A DNA stretch of 64,000 bases from Deltaproteobacteria bacterium (GTDB lineage: Bacteria; Desulfobacterota; Desulfobulbia; Desulfobulbales; SURF-16). Each line of letters opens with the position of its first letter. Position 1 is the first letter of the stretch. Where the stretch lies: assembly GCA_029933005.1 (NCBI GenBank), contig JAOZOY010000005.1, forward strand, positions 10,940-74,939. The letters run 5' to 3'. Positions 55,106 to 64,000 of this stretch are shown piece by piece. Under the pieces are notes generated by a model. It was given only the letters and a program-made list of their open reading frames with translations, was not told the origin of the DNA and searched no databases. The position numbers and the translations under genes were made by a program.

Positions 55106-58100
55106 ATGGACTACCAAACCCAAAGAACAAATCTCATTGAATGGACAAAAAACCAATTAATTGGGTTTGACTATAAAGACAACATTTTGGTTGGGATAGC
55201 TCCATTGGATCGTTTTTTTACCGGTATATTGTTTCCGGTTTTTCAAAGTGAAGATGGTCTTGACGTTGACGAAACTGAAGATGAGATTGAAAACGATGAT
55301 AAAGAGACAGCCCAACCTGTCAAAAAAGAAAAACGTTACATTCCGCCATCATCAGCAGGTTTCTCTTTTTACATTACAGGTACAGAGATAAAGCTGCGAA
55401 TTTTGTATTATGCAGCCTGTTATCAAAAGCAATCTGTAAGAGATGAAAAAGGAAGATTTATCAGCGAAACATGGGAGAAGCAATCACTTGCCCAAGATAA
55501 TGGAGAAGAAGTGGAATTTACTCCTAATGGAGTAAAACAATACCCGGTATTTGACGATAAAGCCAAGATTGATATCCTTTGGAGAAAATACCAGGATGGA
55601 TACATTGTCACAATTTCAATATCGAACACCCAGACTATTGATGGAACAAACTATCACCAGGAAATCAATAAAAAAGCATTATTTGAAGTTACCTTGAAGT
55701 GTATTGTGGAGCATGGAATCGTTGGTAATTATCCAACGACCAACAGAGAATTATTGAGTGCCGAAGAAAAAGAAATCGAGCTCAGATACAAAGATATACG
55801 TACCTATGCTGTCGGTCACGGAACAGGAGTTGACTGGAAAACAACCAGACAAAACAAACTGGAAATATGGGCAGATTTCATGCCTGTTGTAGAGGTTCCT
55901 CAGGTTACAGCCGACACCGGTGACAACGATTCACAAGTACTACAATTTATGTATTTAAGTGAATGTGAGCAAAAACAAGACTGCCTTGAAGAGCTAAAAC
56001 ATTTTGTTTCTGAATACGACACCTGGATTTCCGCTCAGACAAAAAAAACCACCCATGAAGATGACGCCGATAAAGAAACAGCGGGAAATATTATAGCCCG
56101 CCTTATTTCTGCCAAAGAAAGAATGGAGAGGGGAATTCGGTTTCTTGAGGAAGACGAATATGCACGAACAGCCTTTTCCATGGCAAACAAGGCAATGCTC
56201 ATGCAGATGCTTTCCACTGATCAGGTAGAAAGCAAAACAGCGAACAAAAAGAGTTACAAGTGGAGACCTTTTCAACTTGCATTTATTTTAATGGTATTGG
56301 AGTCGTCCACTAATGAAGACAGTGAGTTTCGCGACACTTTGGATCTCATTTGGTTCCCGACAGGGGGAGGCAAGACAGAAGCCTATTTGGGGTTGATGGC
56401 TTTTTTGTTTATCTATAGAAGGTTGAGATATCCTGCCAGCTATGGCGGCACAGTCACAATTATGCGTTACACCTTAAGGCTGCTCACTTCCCAGCAGTTT
56501 ATGAGAGCCTGCAAAGTTATCTTTGCACTGGAGTTATTGCGAAGGGAAGACACAAAAAGATTTGGCAGGCAACCAATCACAGTTGGCCTGTGGGTAGGAA
56601 CAGCAAGTTCTCCCAACACTTTCAAACAGGCCATGGAATGCAGAAACAATGGCCAACACAGCAAACTTATTGTCACTAGATGCCCCTGGTGCCACACTGT
56701 TTTTACAGATGAAAATTTTGTTGCCCGGGAAAATGCCTTTCATTTCACCTGTACAAATAATGGGTGCGATTTTGGCAGGGAAGAAAAAAATATTCTTCCC
56801 TGCAATGTCGTCGATCAATCCCTCTATAAAAAACCGCCAAATTTGTTGATTGCAACAGTTGACAAATTTGCTCGGTTGGCCTGGGATGAAAGAGCCGGCA
56901 ATTTTTTTGGAATAGATGGAAACCGGCCGCCGGAACTCATAATCCAGGATGAACTGCACCTGATTTCAAGTGCTCTTGGCTCCATTGTCGGGCTTTACGA
57001 AGTGGGTATTGATTCACTGCTCATGGCAAGAGGAGTAAGGGCAAAATATGTCGCTTCGACCGCCACTATAAAAAATGCGGCACAACAGGTGAAAACACTT
57101 TTTGCCAGAGACATGGCGGTTTTCCCTCCACCGGGGCTCCGATACGACGACTCCTATTTTGCCAAAACCATCCCCTTGAAAGAAAAGCCAGGGCGCAAAT
57201 ACATAGGTTTCCTGGCCCCCATTCCTCCCAGGCAGCGTTGTCTGTCTCCATTAACGGCCACTCTGTTGGCAGCACCAATCAATCTGTTCAAAGAAAAAGA
57301 GGAGTATCTTGATGCATGGTGGAGCCAGGTAATTTACCATGGAAGTTTAAAAGGAGTTGGGAACAGTCGGACACTCTATCAGGGAGATGCCGACCACTAC
57401 TTGACACGATTAACCCTTGAAAATCTTGGAATTGAAATTGAAGGAACCAAACCAAGTTTTCTTGATGATAAAAAATTTAAAGCCCTTGATGATTATAAAA
57501 AAATTACAGATCCTGAAATTGTAAAAATCGTAGATAAATACTTACCCATACGAAATTTAAATATAAAAACACTAACCAGTAACCAAAGTGCTGAAGACAA
57601 TGGTCAAGTATTTTCTGACCTGGCAAAAGAATATCATGAGCTTGGTTCCATTGATGTTACTCTTGCAACAAATATGATTTCTGTTGGTCTTGATGTTTCC
57701 AGGCTGGCTCTGATGATTATCAACGGACAGCCGTTAACCACGGCAGAGTACATACAGGCAAGCAGTCGGGTTGGACGGGGAGATGTGCCCGGGCTTGTGT
57801 TTGTCAATTATTATAAGACCCAGGCAAGAAGCCTGTCGCATTATGAAAATTTTCGATCATACCACGATTCTTTTTACCGATTTGTCGAGCCTTCCAGCTT
57901 GACCCCTTTTACCTATCAGGCAAGAAAGCGTGCCCTCCATGCAGCCCTCGTTATTGCGGTTAGACACGGTACTCCGTTATTGGCTGCAGATGACAAAGCT
58001 GAATTTTTTGATCCGGAACAATCAGATGTAAAAAAAGTCATTCATATCATGAAACAGCGCATCGCTTCGGCAATAGGGGATAATAAGGCATCCATGAAAC

Positions 58101-58333
58101 AAGTCAATAACCATCTCAGTGAGCTGGTTAACGAATGGTATACGGAAACCAGGTTGAGTGACAGCAAGAAGAGAAATTTGGTGTATTTTTCAAAGGATCG
58201 GGGATCAGATAATCTGCTGCGCAATTTTGACGAAGATCAGGGAGTGTGGCCTACCTTACAGTCCATGAGAAATGTGGAAAATAACGCTTTGATGAAGTTA
58301 TTACCGGGGGTAAAAAAACAAAATGCAGAATAA
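55106..58333 (+). CDS. DrmA-like SF2 (DExH) helicase with an internal zinc ribbon
   Basis: Walker A 'FPTGGGKTEAYLG', motif II 'IIQDELHLISS', 'ATVDKFARL', 'ASTATIKNA', 'LATNMISVGLDVSRL', motif VI 'QASSRVGRG'. The ribbon is 'CPWCHT...CTNNGC'. Confidence 0.8.
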   Translation: MDYQTQRTNLIEWTKNQLIGFDYKDNILVGIAPLDRFFTGILFPVFQSEDGLDVDETEDEIENDDKETAQPVKKEKRYIPPSSAGFSFYITGTEIKLRILYYAACYQKQSVRDEKGRFISETWEKQSLAQDNGEEVEFTPNGVKQYPVFDDKAKIDILWRKYQDGYIVTISISNTQTIDGTNYHQEINKKALFEVTLKCIVEHGIVGNYPTTNRELLSAEEKEIELRYKDIRTYAVGHGTGVDWKTTRQNKLEIWADFMPVVEVPQVTADTGDNDSQVLQFMYLSECEQKQDCLEELKHFVSEYDTWISAQTKKTTHEDDADKETAGNIIARLISAKERMERGIRFLEEDEYARTAFSMANKAMLMQMLSTDQVESKTANKKSYKWRPFQLAFILMVLESSTNEDSEFRDTLDLIWFPTGGGKTEAYLGLMAFLFIYRRLRYPASYGGTVTIMRYTLRLLTSQQFMRACKVIFALELLRREDTKRFGRQPITVGLWVGTASSPNTFKQAMECRNNGQHSKLIVTRCPWCHTVFTDENFVARENAFHFTCTNNGCDFGREEKNILPCNVVDQSLYKKPPNLLIATVDKFARLAWDERAGNFFGIDGNRPPELIIQDELHLISSALGSIVGLYEVGIDSLLMARGVRAKYVASTATIKNAAQQVKTLFARDMAVFPPPGLRYDDSYFAKTIPLKEKPGRKYIGFLAPIPPRQRCLSPLTATLLAAPINLFKEKEEYLDAWWSQVIYHGSLKGVGNSRTLYQGDADHYLTRLTLENLGIEIEGTKPSFLDDKKFKALDDYKKITDPEIVKIVDKYLPIRNLNIKTLTSNQSAEDNGQVFSDLAKEYHELGSIDVTLATNMISVGLDVSRLALMIINGQPLTTAEYIQASSRVGRGDVPGLVFVNYYKTQARSLSHYENFRSYHDSFYRFVEPSSLTPFTYQARKRALHAALVIAVRHGTPLLAADDKAEFFDPEQSDVKKVIHIMKQRIASAIGDNKASMKQVNNHLSELVNEWYTETRLSDSKKRNLVYFSKDRGSDNLLRNFDEDQGVWPTLQSMRNVENNALMKLLPGVKKQNAE

Positions 58334-62839: not shown

Positions 62840-64000
62840 ATGGAAATTATACCTTCAAAACCTTACCCGACTAACAGCCGGGCAGAATTACGTGTCTTCG
62901 ACAAACTCAGAGAATCATTTGTTCATGACTTCTCATATCTCGCATTCCATTCTCTGAACCTTACAAGGCACACAACCAAACGCTTTGGCGAGGCGGATTT
63001 CGTCCTTATCAACAAATTCGGTCTTTTTGTTCTGGAAGTAAAAGGGGGTGGAGTTAAACATGAAAATGGAATCTGGTACACAGTCAATCGATATCAGGAA
63101 TCACATCGAATTCAAGATCCCTTTCGACAAGCGGAAACAGCATTGCATGCTATACAAAATGAAATTCGTCAATCCTGCGAATTTCCTCACCTCAGACTTC
63201 CAGTGGGATATGGAGTTATTTTCTCCGATATAGAATGGAATCAAAAAAGTTCAGAGTGGGATCGGAACACTATATGCGATCGTAATAATATTAAAAATTT
63301 TGAACGCTGGTTGAAACGTTTTTTTAACTACTGGCAATCCAAGCCAGCAAATAAAAATGGACTTAATTCCAAAAATATTGCTGATCTAAAAAGATTTTTA
63401 CGCCCAGACTTTGAACTTACTGAACCATTGCACGCAGTTCTTTCTAAACTGGAGGATTCAGCTGTCCAGTTGACTGAGGATCAGTACAAATACCTTGATA
63501 TCGTTGCTGCTAACAAACGTGTTCTATGCTCAGGAGGGGCTGGTACCGGAAAAACCTTTCTGGCTGCAGAACTTGCCAGACGCTTGGGCGATGAAGATAC
63601 AAGTGTTGTTTTTGTCTGTAAATCCAATTGGCTCAGATGTTACCTTGAGCCAAGGATACATAGTGAATATGTAACTCTTTCCACCATTGATAGTGCCTTA
63701 ATTGACAAGAAACGTGTAGCTATAGAAACCTATGATGTTTTAATTGTTGACGAAGGGCAGGACCTGTTTAATCTGGAAGATATTGAAGTTCTTGAATCTC
63801 TTTTGTCGGGAGGATTAAAAAAGGGCGAATGGTATATTTTTCATGATGTCAATAATCAGGCAGGTCTCTTTCCTGGTTCAGATGAAAATCAGTCCAAAGA
63901 GATAATGGAATATTTAAAAGATTACGCTCCGGTCAATATCCCTCTGACAACAAACTGTAGAAATACAAAAAATATTCTCGATAAAATTCAAAAGACCCTT
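62840..64000 (+). CDS. NERD-domain nuclease fused to an SF1 helicase (Nhi-like architecture), 3' end beyond the window
   Basis: Not in the ORF track because it has no stop within the window. I translated it by hand from the ATG at 62840: 'MEIIPSKPYP...FGEADFVLINKFGLFVLEVKGG' (NERD), Walker A 'SGGAGTGKTF', Walker B 'VLIVDEGQDL', 'TTNCRNT'. Confidence 0.8.
   Translation, partial: MEIIPSKPYPTNSRAELRVFDKLRESFVHDFSYLAFHSLNLTRHTTKRFGEADFVLINKFGLFVLEVKGGGVKHENGIWYTVNRYQESHRIQDPFRQAETALHAIQNEIRQSCEFPHLRLPVGYGVIFSDIEWNQKSSEWDRNTICDRNNIKNFERWLKRFFNYWQSKPANKNGLNSKNIADLKRFLRPDFELTEPLHAVLSKLEDSAVQLTEDQYKYLDIVAANKRVLCSGGAGTGKTFLAAELARRLGDEDTSVVFVCKSNWLRCYLEPRIHSEYVTLSTIDSALIDKKRVAIETYDVLIVDEGQDLFNLEDIEVLESLLSGGLKKGEWYIFHDVNNQAGLFPGSDENQSKEIMEYLKDYAPVNIPLTTNCRNTKNILDKIQKTL

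What the first reader, a model, noticed from the sequence alone, without database searches (positions are those of the whole stretch)
55106..64000. Translationally coupled multi-helicase operon: a DISARM-type DrmA/DrmB core with no visible DrmC or methylase, joined to an SF1 ATPase, an unknown 515-aa protein and a NERD-helicase
Seen in sequence: five same-strand ORFs are packed with overlapping or abutting junctions.
- ATG 58323 overlaps stop 58333.
- ATG 60145 overlaps stop 60152.
- ATG 61292 overlaps stop 61302.
- Stop 62839 abuts ATG 62840.

Gene 1 carries DExH SF2 motifs (GGGKT, DELH, QASSRVGRG). Gene 2 ends in the DUF1998 signature CHGC...SC...N..LDR. Gene 3 is a minimal SF1 core. Gene 4 has no recognisable motif. 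Gene 5 is NERD plus SF1.

Established knowledge: DISARM is defined by DrmA (helicase), DrmB (DUF1998) and DrmC (PLD), plus a methyltransferase and DrmD or DrmE. NERD-helicase fusions act alone as Nhi-type defences.

Inference: a DrmAB core wired to two extra SF1 motors, a NERD nuclease and an orphan protein, with no modification gene in view, does not match any named system I know. The context is defence-island-like (TA pair, DUF4143 ATPase, IS remnant, lower GC by eye).
Basis: partly seen in the sequence, partly recalled or inferred. Interest (0 to 1): 0.88.

Follow-up and report, generated by a model that had tools for sequence, protein, structure and literature searches.

The report
Methylase-free DISARM-like five-gene defence operon
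This is a real, tightly packed five-gene operon, found with the same gene order in about 50 loci from at least four bacterial phyla, that joins the DISARM DrmA/DrmB helicase core to two SF1 motor proteins, a NERD nuclease and a previously undescribed protein with a DarT-like fold; it has no methylase or DrmC and looks like an unnamed anti-phage system.

Summary
Five same-strand genes (55106-58333, 58323-60152, 60145-61302, 61292-62839, 62840 to about 64420) overlap or abut.

- **Genes 1 and 2:** full-length homologues of the solved DrmA:DrmB complex (7S9V).
- **Gene 3:** a minimal UvrD-like SF1 ATPase.
- **Gene 5:** a NERD-SF1 fusion. Its closest modelled relative is the NERD-helicase that accompanies UG34 defence reverse transcriptases.
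- **Gene 4:** no hit in Pfam, NCBIfam, PADLOC or PDB sequences. Two independent AlphaFold models place its N-terminal domain on the DarT DNA ADP-ribosyltransferase fold. The DarT catalytic residues H13, R51 and E160 are not kept.

An identical contig extends past the window end and shows only an SSB fragment and a transposase downstream, with no PLD or methyltransferase.

The gene order is invariant in 13 genomes, 29 metagenome contigs and 8 loci found through distant gene-4 relatives. No sixth gene is conserved. All helicase and nuclease motifs are invariant. Neighbours often include known defence genes.

I found no name or description for this system. I classify it as a new variant of the DISARM-like kind. 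It is probably modification-independent, with the NERD nuclease taking the place of DrmC. The mechanism is inferred, not shown.

The parts
55106..58333 (+). Gene 1: DrmA-like SF2 (DExH) helicase, 1075 aa
   Evidence: PADLOC DrmA 6.6e-198. NCBIfam DISARM_DrmAS 815 bits, below the 950 cut-off. PDB 7S9V_A DrmA 1.3e-121. Walker A G420-T424, DExH D615-H618 and motif VI Q884-R891 are invariant or nearly so in 26 orthologues.
58323..60152 (+). Gene 2: DrmB-like OB-CON-DUF1998 (MZB) zinc-binding partner, 609 aa; overlaps gene 1 by 11 nt
   Evidence: NCBIfam DrmB_fam 328 bits, above the 240 cut-off, covering residues 9-588. Pfam MZB. PDB 7S9V_B 6e-49 over residues 3-587. C543, C549, C565 and C576 are invariant (29/29) and C568 is kept in 28 of 29; the N-terminal CxxC pairs C99/C102 and C186/C189 are invariant in 29 orthologues.
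60145..61302 (+). Gene 3: minimal UvrD-like SF1 ATPase/helicase, 385 aa; overlaps gene 2 by 8 nt
   Evidence: Pfam SLFN-g3_helicase, AAA_19 and UvrD-helicase. PADLOC GajB-type and NERD-helicase models, 1e-10 to 1e-12. PcrA in the PDB, 2.5e-6. Walker A GxPGTGKS, DEGQD, DQNQQ, NxRN, KGxEFD and SRA are invariant in 40 orthologues.
61292..62839 (+). Gene 4: 515-aa protein of a previously undescribed family. N-terminal domain (about residues 1-160) has a DarT-like ADP-ribosyltransferase fold; C-terminal part (about 190-515) is a mainly helical domain with no robust structural match. Overlaps gene 3 by 11 nt.
   Evidence: No Pfam, NCBIfam, PADLOC or PDB-sequence hit. The family has 68 clusters at 90% identity and 256 representatives at 50% identity. 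AF2 model pLDDT 86, pTM 0.89. Foldseek against the PDB puts DarT first: E 4e-3, prob 1.00, TM 0.54-0.57 on the target. A model of a 27%-identical member reproduces this: E 1.5e-3, TM 0.55-0.59. The conserved core is T10, N11, N14, G22, G29, Y33, D36, P46, E65, P112-L-P114, G200, M403, H408.
62840..64000 (+). Gene 5: NERD (PD-(D/E)xK) nuclease fused to an SF1 helicase. It is cut by the window end; the full length is 526 aa, ending at window-equivalent position 64420 on contig L001.
   Evidence: Pfam NERD 9e-13. PADLOC RTasNERD-Hel 3.2e-59 over residues 5-522 of 526. The full gene is on L001:7910-9490. D53, E66, K68 and the Walker A and B residues are invariant in 33 orthologues.
52304..55036 (.). 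Upstream island context, not part of the operon: ISCR-type transposase remnant (52304-52912, minus strand), DUF4143/AAA_14 ATPase (52954-54111, plus strand), and two small overlapping orphan ORFs (54408-55036, minus strand)
   Evidence: The drop in GC begins here.

Best explanation
The five genes form one self-contained mobile defence operon derived from the DISARM lineage.

**Shown here.**
- The five genes are inherited as an invariant, translationally packed unit.
- All three ATPase motors, the DUF1998 zinc site and the NERD nuclease triad are strictly conserved.
- No methyltransferase, PLD nuclease or SNF2 helicase is linked.

**Inferred mechanism.**
1. DrmA and DrmB assemble as in the solved Serratia complex. 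There, DNA with a 5' overhang dislodges an autoinhibitory loop and activates the helicase (Bravo et al. 2022, PMC9142583). In this role they sense invading or replicating foreign DNA and translocate on it.
2. No cognate methylase exists, so self/non-self discrimination cannot rest on a system-encoded methyl mark. It must rest on DNA structure (free ends, ssDNA overhangs) or on phage-borne features.
3. The NERD-SF1 fusion takes the place DrmC holds in DISARM and supplies the DNA-cleaving effector.
4. The small SF1 ATPase and the DarT-fold protein act as a pair. This is comparable to the helicase plus DarT/DarG3 arrangement of the validated DarHTG system (PMC13069673).
5. The DarT-fold domain has lost the catalytic H, R and E of DarT but keeps a conserved T-N..N...Y..D pocket. 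I think it most likely binds ssDNA or a nucleotide ligand and gates or targets the nuclease, rather than ADP-ribosylating DNA.
6. Gene 4 evolves about twice as fast as its partners. That fits a specificity or trigger-sensing role.
For: - **Unit of inheritance.** The order DrmA-DrmB-SF1-g4-NERD/SF1 is identical in 13 genome loci, 29 metagenome loci and 8 loci reached through gene-4 relatives of only about 25% identity. Hosts span Gammaproteobacteria, Campylobacterota, Bacteroidota and Desulfobacterota.
- **Tight packing.** Median junctions are -11, -8, -8 and -1 nt across loci.
- **No sixth gene.** No flanking gene recurs other than ssb, and no DNA methylase or PLD family recurs in the flanks.
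- **Catalytic motifs.** They are invariant in genes 1, 2, 3 and 5.
- **DrmAB homology.** Homology to the solved complex is strong; it covers the full length of DrmB, and for DrmA the best matched stretch is residues 603-1028.
- **Defence context.** Low GC and IS debris flank the window copy. Druantia III, Wadjet, AbiEi, PDC-M16A-like genes and integrases sit next to other copies.
- **DarT fold.** It is reproduced in two models. hhalign places g4 T10/N14-L15 on the DarT invariants T15/N19-L20, and the g4 P112-L-P114 strand on the DarT F-P168-W strand.
- **Divergence.** Gene 4 is 27-34% identical where the other four genes are 47-62% identical in the same loci.
Against: - No experiment shows defence, nuclease activity or complex formation for this operon.
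- Sequence profiles do not connect gene 4 to DarT (hhalign probability below 2%). The fold match is moderate (E about 1e-3, TM about 0.55).
- DarT catalytic residues are not conserved: hydrophobic at the H13 position, variable at the E160 position.
- A methylase or DrmC encoded elsewhere in these genomes cannot be excluded.
- ssb lies beside the operon in at least 8 loci. That could point to a DNA-repair or replication role instead.
- The system was not found on viral contigs, so mobility is inferred only from patchy phylogeny and from flanking IS and integrase genes.
Confidence: 0.55

Rival explanations
1. Gene 4 is a catalytically active, highly derived ADP-ribosyltransferase (or related NAD+-using enzyme). 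It would be a DarT-like toxin held in check in cis by its own C-terminal domain and unleashed on ssDNA exposed by the helicases. The system would then act by covalent DNA modification or abortive infection rather than by restriction.
For: - DarT is the top structural match in two independent models.
- ADP-ribosylglycohydrolases (ARH3) appear for the C-terminal domain in the first PDB search and in the viral library.
- A strictly conserved polar cluster (N14 and D36 invariant; T10, Y33 and E65 near-invariant) suggests a functional pocket.
- The validated DarHTG system combines DarT, an ARH-type antitoxin and a UvrD-like helicase (PMC13069673).
Against: - DarT H13, R51 and E160 have no conserved counterparts.
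- Profile-profile comparison is not significant.
- The ARH match is weak (E 0.15-1, TM 0.34-0.40). It falls to rank 15 (E 2.1) in the replicate model.
- The C-terminal domain has no acidic metal-binding cluster of the ARH type among its conserved residues.
Confidence: 0.17
2. The operon is a DNA-repair or replication-restart module, like the MrfA/MrfB branch of YprA helicases, and not an immune system.
For: - YprA-family helicases include repair enzymes.
- ssb is adjacent in at least 8 loci.
- The system was not detected on viral contigs.
Against: - Genes 1 and 2 match the split DrmA/DrmB defence type specifically, not fused MrfA. Bell et al. state that the split is characteristic of the DISARM branch.
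- Phyletic distribution is very patchy: 13 of 185,579 species genomes matched the search pattern.
- GC is low and IS debris flanks the window copy.
- Known defence systems are frequent neighbours.
- ssb lies on either side and on either strand, as expected for an integration hotspot rather than an operon partner.
Confidence: 0.1
3. The locus is a chance juxtaposition of separate elements: a decayed DISARM remnant (DrmAB only) next to an independent Nhi-like NERD-helicase and unrelated genes.
For: - NERD-helicases can act alone (Nhi; own knowledge, and stated in the finding).
- Gene 5 relatives also occur with UG34 reverse transcriptases (PMC9226505).
- Defence islands stack systems.
Against: - Five-gene synteny is invariant across about 50 loci and four phyla, with overlapping stop and start codons at the junctions.
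- Gene 4 relatives were never seen outside this context in any locus examined.
- All catalytic motifs of DrmA and DrmB are intact, which does not fit a decaying remnant.
Confidence: 0.04
4. It is an ordinary DISARM system whose methyltransferase, DrmC and SNF2/DrmE genes lie elsewhere in the genome.
For: DrmC is reported as dispensable in some DISARM systems (mentioned in bioRxiv 10.64898/2025.12.11.693642). Only 10 kb of flank could be inspected per locus.
Against: - No DNA methylase, PLD or DrmD/DrmE recurs in the flanks of about 40 loci.
- Three extra conserved genes occupy the operon instead.
- DrmA scores below the NCBIfam equivalog cut-off: 815 against 950.
Confidence: 0.05

Closest known systems
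DISARM class 1 / class 2 (Ofir et al. 2018; DrmAB structure 7S9V/7S9W, Bravo et al. 2022, PMC9142583)
   Same: It has the split DrmA helicase and DrmB (OB-CON-DUF1998) pair. There is strong sequence homology to the solved complex (full length for DrmB), adjacent overlapping genes and a defence-island context.
   Different: It has no DrmC (PLD), no DrmMI/DrmMII methyltransferase and no DrmD (SNF2) or DrmE. Instead it carries two SF1 ATPases, a NERD nuclease and a DarT-fold protein. DrmA scores below the NCBIfam DrmA equivalog threshold.
DarHTG (Liu-DS3; NAR 2026, PMC13069673)
   Same: A UvrD-like helicase is encoded next to a DarT-fold protein. The helicase ATPase is essential in DarHTG. The ARH-type antitoxin DarG3 parallels the faint ARH-like signal in the gene 4 C-terminal domain.
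   Different: Gene 4 lacks the DarT catalytic residues and has no significant sequence similarity to DarT. The ARH resemblance is not reproducible. The two domains are fused in one protein, and the module is embedded with DrmAB and a NERD-helicase.
NERD-helicase defence proteins: 'RTasNERD-Hel' (cluster 485, associated with UG34 reverse transcriptases; Mestre et al. 2022, PMC9226505), Nhi, AbiO
   Same: Gene 5 aligns end to end with the PADLOC RTasNERD-Hel model (3.2e-59). It shares the NERD plus SF1 architecture with Nhi and AbiO (E about 1e-11).
   Different: No reverse transcriptase is present. Gene 5 is not a stand-alone gene; it is the invariant last gene of a five-gene operon.
ARMADA / TALON / BRIGADE (YprA-family systems; Bell et al. 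2025, bioRxiv 10.1101/2025.09.15.676423)
   Same: These are also DISARM-related operons built round a YprA-family helicase with extra helicases. ARMADA II ends in a GajB-like SF1 helicase, and TALON includes a NERD nuclease.
   Different: Those systems use a fused YprA helicase of the Druantia-like clade. They carry BrxHII plus a PglX methylase (ARMADA), or TPR-CSD plus TBP (TALON). Here the helicase is the split DrmA/DrmB type and none of those partners is present. The paper only mentions 'many uncharacterized DISARM-like ... classes', and I found no description of this one.

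Membership tests
DISARM (class 1 or 2) | DrmA: SF2 DExH helicase of the YprA/DrmA type | tested here: met
   PADLOC DrmA 6.6e-198. 7S9V_A 1.3e-121. NCBIfam DrmAS scores 815 bits, below the 950 equivalog cut-off.
DISARM (class 1 or 2) | DrmB: separate DUF1998/MZB protein encoded next to DrmA | tested here: met
   NCBIfam DrmB_fam 328 bits, above the 240 cut-off. 7S9V_B 6e-49. Cysteines conserved.
DISARM (class 1 or 2) | DrmC: PLD-family nuclease in the operon | tested here: not met
   None of the five proteins hits a PLD family. Downstream on L001 there is only an SSB fragment and a transposase. No PLD family recurs in the flanks of related loci.
DISARM (class 1 or 2) | Cognate DNA methyltransferase (DrmMI N6-adenine or DrmMII C5-cytosine) | tested here: not met
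   There is no methyltransferase hit in the operon or in the 8.5 kb upstream. No DNA-methylase family is among the recurrent flank families in 129 flanking ORFs. A methylase acting in trans elsewhere in the genome could not be tested.
DISARM (class 1 or 2) | DrmD (SNF2 helicase) or DrmE | tested here: not met
   Genes 3 and 5 are SF1 UvrD-like proteins, not SNF2. No PADLOC DrmD or DrmE hit.
DarT / DarTG (including DarHTG) | DarT (DUF4433) sequence family membership | tested here: not met
   No Pfam PF14487 hit. hhalign of 139 gene-4 relatives against 26 DarT sequences gives probability 0.8%. The N-terminal domain alone gives 1.6%.
DarT / DarTG (including DarHTG) | ART fold of the DarT type | tested here: met
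   In Foldseek against the PDB, DarT entries are the top 8 hits for the window protein and the top 5 for a 27%-identical homologue: E 1.5e-3 to 4e-2, prob 1.00, and target-normalised TM 0.43-0.59 for the stand-alone DarT chains (0.28-0.31 on the longer DarTG fusion 7omu).
DarT / DarTG (including DarHTG) | Catalytic residues H13, R51, E160 (invariant in the DarT alignment) | tested here: not met
   The position aligned to H13 is F/L/I. The position aligned to E160 (T106) is variable. No conserved Arg corresponds to R51.
DarT / DarTG (including DarHTG) | Antitoxin that reverses ADP-ribosylation (macrodomain DarG or ARH-type DarG3) | tested here: inconclusive
   ARH3-like matches to the C-terminal domain are weak (E 0.15-1, TM 0.34-0.40). 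They are not reproduced in the second model (rank 15, E 2.1). No macrodomain hit.
Nhi-type stand-alone NERD-helicase | NERD nuclease fused to an SF1 helicase | tested here: met
   Pfam NERD plus SF1 motifs. PADLOC Nhi 6.8e-12, against RTasNERD-Hel 3.2e-59.
Nhi-type stand-alone NERD-helicase | Acts as a single-gene system | tested here: not met
   It is always the fifth gene of the operon and abuts gene 4. Functional independence cannot be tested here.
ARMADA / TALON (Bell et al. 2025) | Fused ARMADA-type YprA helicase with BrxHII plus PglX methylase (ARMADA), or TPR-CSD plus TBP (TALON) | tested here: not met
   The helicase is the split DrmA/DrmB type. No methylase, SNF2, TPR-CSD or TBP hits appear in the operon.

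The most novel reading that the evidence does not exclude
The DarT-fold protein may be a new kind of enzyme that uses the conserved N14/D36 pocket in place of the classical H-Y-E site. It would covalently modify DNA, by ADP-ribosylation or a related nucleotide transfer, on ssDNA that the three helicases expose. DISARM's DrmAB sensor would then have been rewired from methylation-linked restriction to a methylase-free system that marks or poisons invading DNA, with the NERD nuclease acting on the marked DNA.
Probability: 0.15. Interest if true: 0.85.

Novelty: new variant of a known kind. Interest (0 to 1): 0.64.

Why it matters
DISARM is defined by its link to restriction-modification, yet how DrmAB distinguishes self from foreign DNA, and what actually kills the phage, is still unclear. 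This is a natural, widely transferred operon in which the DrmAB core works without any linked methylase or PLD nuclease. It has an obvious alternative nuclease instead. That makes two questions directly testable: whether DrmAB is a modification-independent sensor of foreign DNA, and what it hands its signal to.

The work also defines a new protein family of about 250 clusters at 50% identity. It has a DarT-like fold and is found only in this system. That family extends the recently reported pairing of helicases with DarT-type modules (DarHTG). It may be either a new nucleotide-transfer enzyme or a 'pseudo-ART' DNA-binding adaptor.

Tried and rejected
- **Source of the window.** Megablast of the 9-kb region against complete E. 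coli genomes and PLSDB plasmids found nothing.
- **Viral origin.** The IMG/VR scan for gene 4 relatives found none.
- **Sequence link from gene 4 to solved structures or DarT.** All of the following were non-significant: the profile against PDB sequences; hhalign against single DarT sequences; hhalign against a 26-sequence DarT profile.
- **Other architectures for the N-terminal domain.** A profile search with the domain alone returned only two short fragments.
- **ARH-like reading of the gene 4 C-terminal domain.** Considered, then downgraded after the replicate model lost the signal.
- **Sixth conserved gene.** Clustering of flanking ORFs found only ssb (6 loci) and neighbours restricted to a single lineage.
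- **Promoter and terminator scan.** Uninformative: counts were at shuffle level.
- **tRNA integration site.** None between 45 and 64 kb.
- **Literature.** I searched for DrmA/DrmB with NERD, UvrD or DarT, for DUF1998 with NERD, and for DISARM-like systems. I also searched the supplements of Bell et al. 2025. No description of this operon was found. DarHTG sequences were not held, so genes 3 and 4 could not be compared with them directly.
- **Oversized scan.** A Pfam scan of 139 family members exceeded the residue limit.

Full report
**1. The observation**

The ORF scan and translations confirm five consecutive plus-strand genes:
- 55106-58333
- 58323-60152
- 60145-61302
- 61292-62839
- 62840 to the window end

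The junctions are overlaps of 11, 8 and 11 nt, followed by direct abutment.

A public contig (L001) is identical to the window over 9070 bases with no mismatches. It continues 1.2 kb beyond the window. Gene 5 is complete there at 526 aa, ending at window-equivalent position 64420. Downstream there is only an SSB fragment and the C-terminus of a transposase, both on the opposite strand.

The region has lower GC (0.39-0.44) than the rest of the window. Upstream lie a weak ISCR-transposase remnant, a DUF4143/AAA_14 ATPase and two small orphan ORFs. I could not confirm that those two ORFs are a toxin-antitoxin pair. Further upstream are housekeeping genes: ATP synthase I/a/c and an aminotransferase.

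**2. Identity of the parts**

*Gene 1* is a DrmA-type helicase.
- PADLOC DrmA: 6.6e-198.
- PDB 7S9V chain A: 1.3e-121.
- NCBIfam DISARM_DrmAS: 815 bits, below the equivalog cut-off of 950.

*Gene 2* is a DrmB-family protein.
- NCBIfam: 328 bits against a cut-off of 240.
- PDB 7S9V chain B: 6e-49 over nearly the full length.

*Gene 3* is a 385-aa UvrD-like SF1 ATPase.

*Gene 5* is a NERD nuclease fused to an SF1 helicase.
- It aligns end to end with the PADLOC model RTasNERD-Hel (3.2e-59). Nhi and AbiO score far lower, about 1e-11.
- That model corresponds to the NERD-helicase cluster found beside UG34 defence reverse transcriptases (PMC9226505).
- Genes 3 and 5 are only distant paralogues: 23% identity, E 0.01.

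*Gene 4* has no hit in Pfam, NCBIfam, PADLOC or PDB sequences.

**3. Gene 4 in detail**

It founds a real family. There are 68 clusters at 90% identity and 256 representatives at 50% identity in an exhaustive HMMER scan. All are unannotated.

An AlphaFold2 model built from 34 sequences is confident: pLDDT 86, pTM 0.89. It shows three regions:
- an alpha/beta N-terminal domain, residues about 1-160
- a disordered linker, residues 164-188
- a mainly helical C-terminal part

Foldseek against the PDB puts eight DarT (DNA ADP-ribosyltransferase) entries first: E 4e-3 to 4e-2, prob 1.00, target-normalised TM up to 0.57. tRNA 2'-phosphotransferase, another ART-fold enzyme, also appears. ARH3-type ADP-ribosylglycohydrolases appear more weakly for the C-terminal domain.

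I repeated the test with a model of a 27%-identical Thiothrix homologue (pLDDT 88). DarT again filled the top five places (E 1.5e-3, TM 0.55-0.59). ARH3 dropped to rank 15 (E 2.1). The DarT-like fold is therefore robust. The ARH likeness is not.

At sequence level the link to DarT is not significant (hhalign probability below 2%). The local alignments are nevertheless consistent with the fold match:
- g4 T10-N11..N14-L15 falls on DarT T15-H16..N19-L20.
- The g4 P112-L-P114 strand falls on the DarT F-P168-W strand.

DarT's invariant catalytic residues H13, R51 and E160 have no conserved counterpart. The position aligned to H13 is F/L/I, and the position aligned to E160 is variable. Across 194 family members, gene 4 instead conserves T10, N11, N14, Y33, D36, E65 and P112-L-P114.

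I conclude that gene 4 carries a DarT-like fold with a different conserved pocket. It is not a member of the DarT family.

**4. Conservation of the operon**

- A pattern scan of 185,579 species-representative genomes found 13 loci. The hosts are Colwellia, Lysobacterales, Methylococcales, Methylomonas, Arcobacteraceae, Campylobacteraceae, Flavobacteriales and Crocinitomix.
- A metagenome scan found 29 more loci.
- tblastn with the five proteins shows the same gene order in every locus, limited only by contig ends.
- Five gene-4 relatives at about 25% identity lie in the same operon. These include variants with an N-terminal extension of about 220 aa.
- Named hits add Bacteroidales, Sulfurovum, Thiothrix and Desulfamplus.
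- Junctions are overlapping or abutting throughout. Medians are -11, -8, -8 and -1 nt. A few outliers come from my start-codon heuristic.
- Walker A/B and helicase motifs of genes 1, 3 and 5, the zinc cysteines of gene 2 and the NERD D..ExK triad are invariant or nearly so.
- Gene 4 diverges about twice as fast as its partners: 27-34% identity against 47-62% in the same loci.

**5. What is absent**

Clustering of 142 flanking ORFs found no conserved sixth gene. Pfam and PADLOC scans of 129 flanking ORFs found no recurrent DNA methyltransferase, PLD nuclease or SNF2 partner. Ten immediate same-strand neighbours were of varied kinds: CoiA-like, a second NERD protein, AbiEi and unknowns.

Recurrent or notable neighbours are:
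- ssb, in at least 8 loci, on either side and either strand
- Druantia III, directly downstream in L038
- Wadjet, PDC-M16A-like proteins and integrases

This supports a defence-island setting. No copy was found on viral contigs.

**6. Mechanism (inferred)**

In the solved DISARM core, DrmAB is autoinhibited by a trigger loop. DNA with a 5' overhang displaces that loop (PMC9142583). By homology, genes 1 and 2 should form the same DNA-activated translocase.

With no linked methylase, discrimination is unlikely to rest on a system-encoded methyl mark. The invariant NERD triad fused to an SF1 motor is the obvious DNA-cleaving effector, in the place DrmC holds in DISARM.

The small SF1 ATPase and the DarT-fold protein resemble the helicase plus DarT/DarG3 combination of the experimentally validated DarHTG system. 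In that system the helicase ATPase is essential (PMC13069673).

Because the DarT catalytic residues are missing, I favour a binding, gating or specificity role for gene 4. Its fast evolution fits this. I put the chance that it is an active, non-canonical transferase at about 15-17%.

**7. Comparison with known systems**

- **DISARM.** The DrmA and DrmB criteria are met. The DrmC, methylase and DrmD/DrmE criteria are not. It is not DISARM class 1 or 2.
- **ARMADA, TALON, BRIGADE.** It is none of these, as defined by Bell et al. 2025. That paper notes 'many uncharacterized DISARM-like ... classes' without describing this one. Its supplements contain none of the search terms I tried (Colwellia, Desulfamplus, DISARM-like, NERD).
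- **Nhi and DarTG.** It is not a stand-alone Nhi and not a DarTG.
- **Literature.** Seven full-text searches found no description.
- **PADLOC.** PADLOC-DB 2.0.0 has no model for gene 4.

**8. Verdict**

This is a conserved, horizontally spread, methylase-free DISARM-like five-gene system containing a new DarT-fold protein family.

I rate it a new variant of a known kind. The mechanism is inferred and untested.

Limits of this work:
- No experiments.
- Only open-access literature was searched.
- Flanks were limited to 10 kb per locus.
- The host organism of the window is unidentified.

Noticed in passing
L001:9567-9857 (just past the window end, about window 64497-64787); also L016, L028, L031, L032, L036, L037, L049: A single-strand-binding protein gene (ssb) lies beside the five-gene operon in at least 8 loci. 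It can be on either side and either strand. In L049 it is on the same strand, 130 bp downstream, followed by an SNF2 helicase. This could be an integration hotspot near ssb or a functional link.
   Followed up: partly
L038:6933-15036: A Druantia type III pair (DruH, then DruE) starts 10 nt before the end of the gene-5 homologue, so the two systems are fused into one apparent super-operon. This echoes the ARMADA/Druantia III co-occurrence reported by Bell et al. 2025.
   Followed up: no
L004:13139-14116, L023:13123-14100, L042:13128-14105: In Colwellia-type loci a 326-aa protein with a CoiA N-terminal domain follows gene 5 on the same strand after 63-69 bp. It may be a lineage-specific sixth gene.
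   Followed up: partly
L009:843-2333 and L027:194-1684: A second NERD-domain protein (497 aa) lies upstream of DrmA on the same strand in a Flavobacteriales group of loci. Its N-terminus matches the PADLOC candidate PDC-M16A at 2.8e-51.
   Followed up: partly
window 52304-52912 (-) and L001:9907-10269 (-): The island is bracketed by transposase debris. Upstream is a weak ISCR-type C-terminal remnant. Just beyond the window end is the C-terminus of a Transposase_29 family protein.
   Followed up: partly
window 54408-54671 (-) and 54671-55036 (-): Two small minus-strand ORFs (87 and 121 aa) overlap by 1 nt immediately upstream of drmA. Neither has a credible family hit even at E<=1: the 87-aa ORF has none, and the 121-aa ORF has only a sub-threshold DUF1985 match (E 0.12). 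They look like a toxin-antitoxin pair, but that is unverified.
   Followed up: partly
window 52954-54111 (+): A DUF4143/AAA_14 ATPase (385 aa) sits between the IS remnant and the operon. It was not among the gene families that recurred in three or more related loci.
   Followed up: partly
P0171, P0142, P0184, P0197, P0209 (e.g. L045:7938-10133); P0066, P0068: Some gene-4 relatives carry an N-terminal extension of about 130-220 aa before the W-x-x-[PA]-T-N motif. Others carry a long C-terminal extension. The extensions were not characterised.
   Followed up: no
Foldseek BFVD hits G3MA77, G3MAU8 (Bacillus phage G), A0A6N1NNZ5 (Tupanvirus): Small uncharacterised viral proteins match the gene-4 N-terminal domain about as well as DarT does (E 6e-3 to 2e-2, TM 0.48-0.54). 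They may be viral ART-fold proteins.
   Followed up: no
window 46672-51565 (-): Housekeeping genes abut the island directly: a GltD-like oxidoreductase, ATP synthase subunits c, a and I, and a class-III aminotransferase. This marks the left boundary of the low-GC insert at about 52 kb.
   Followed up: partly
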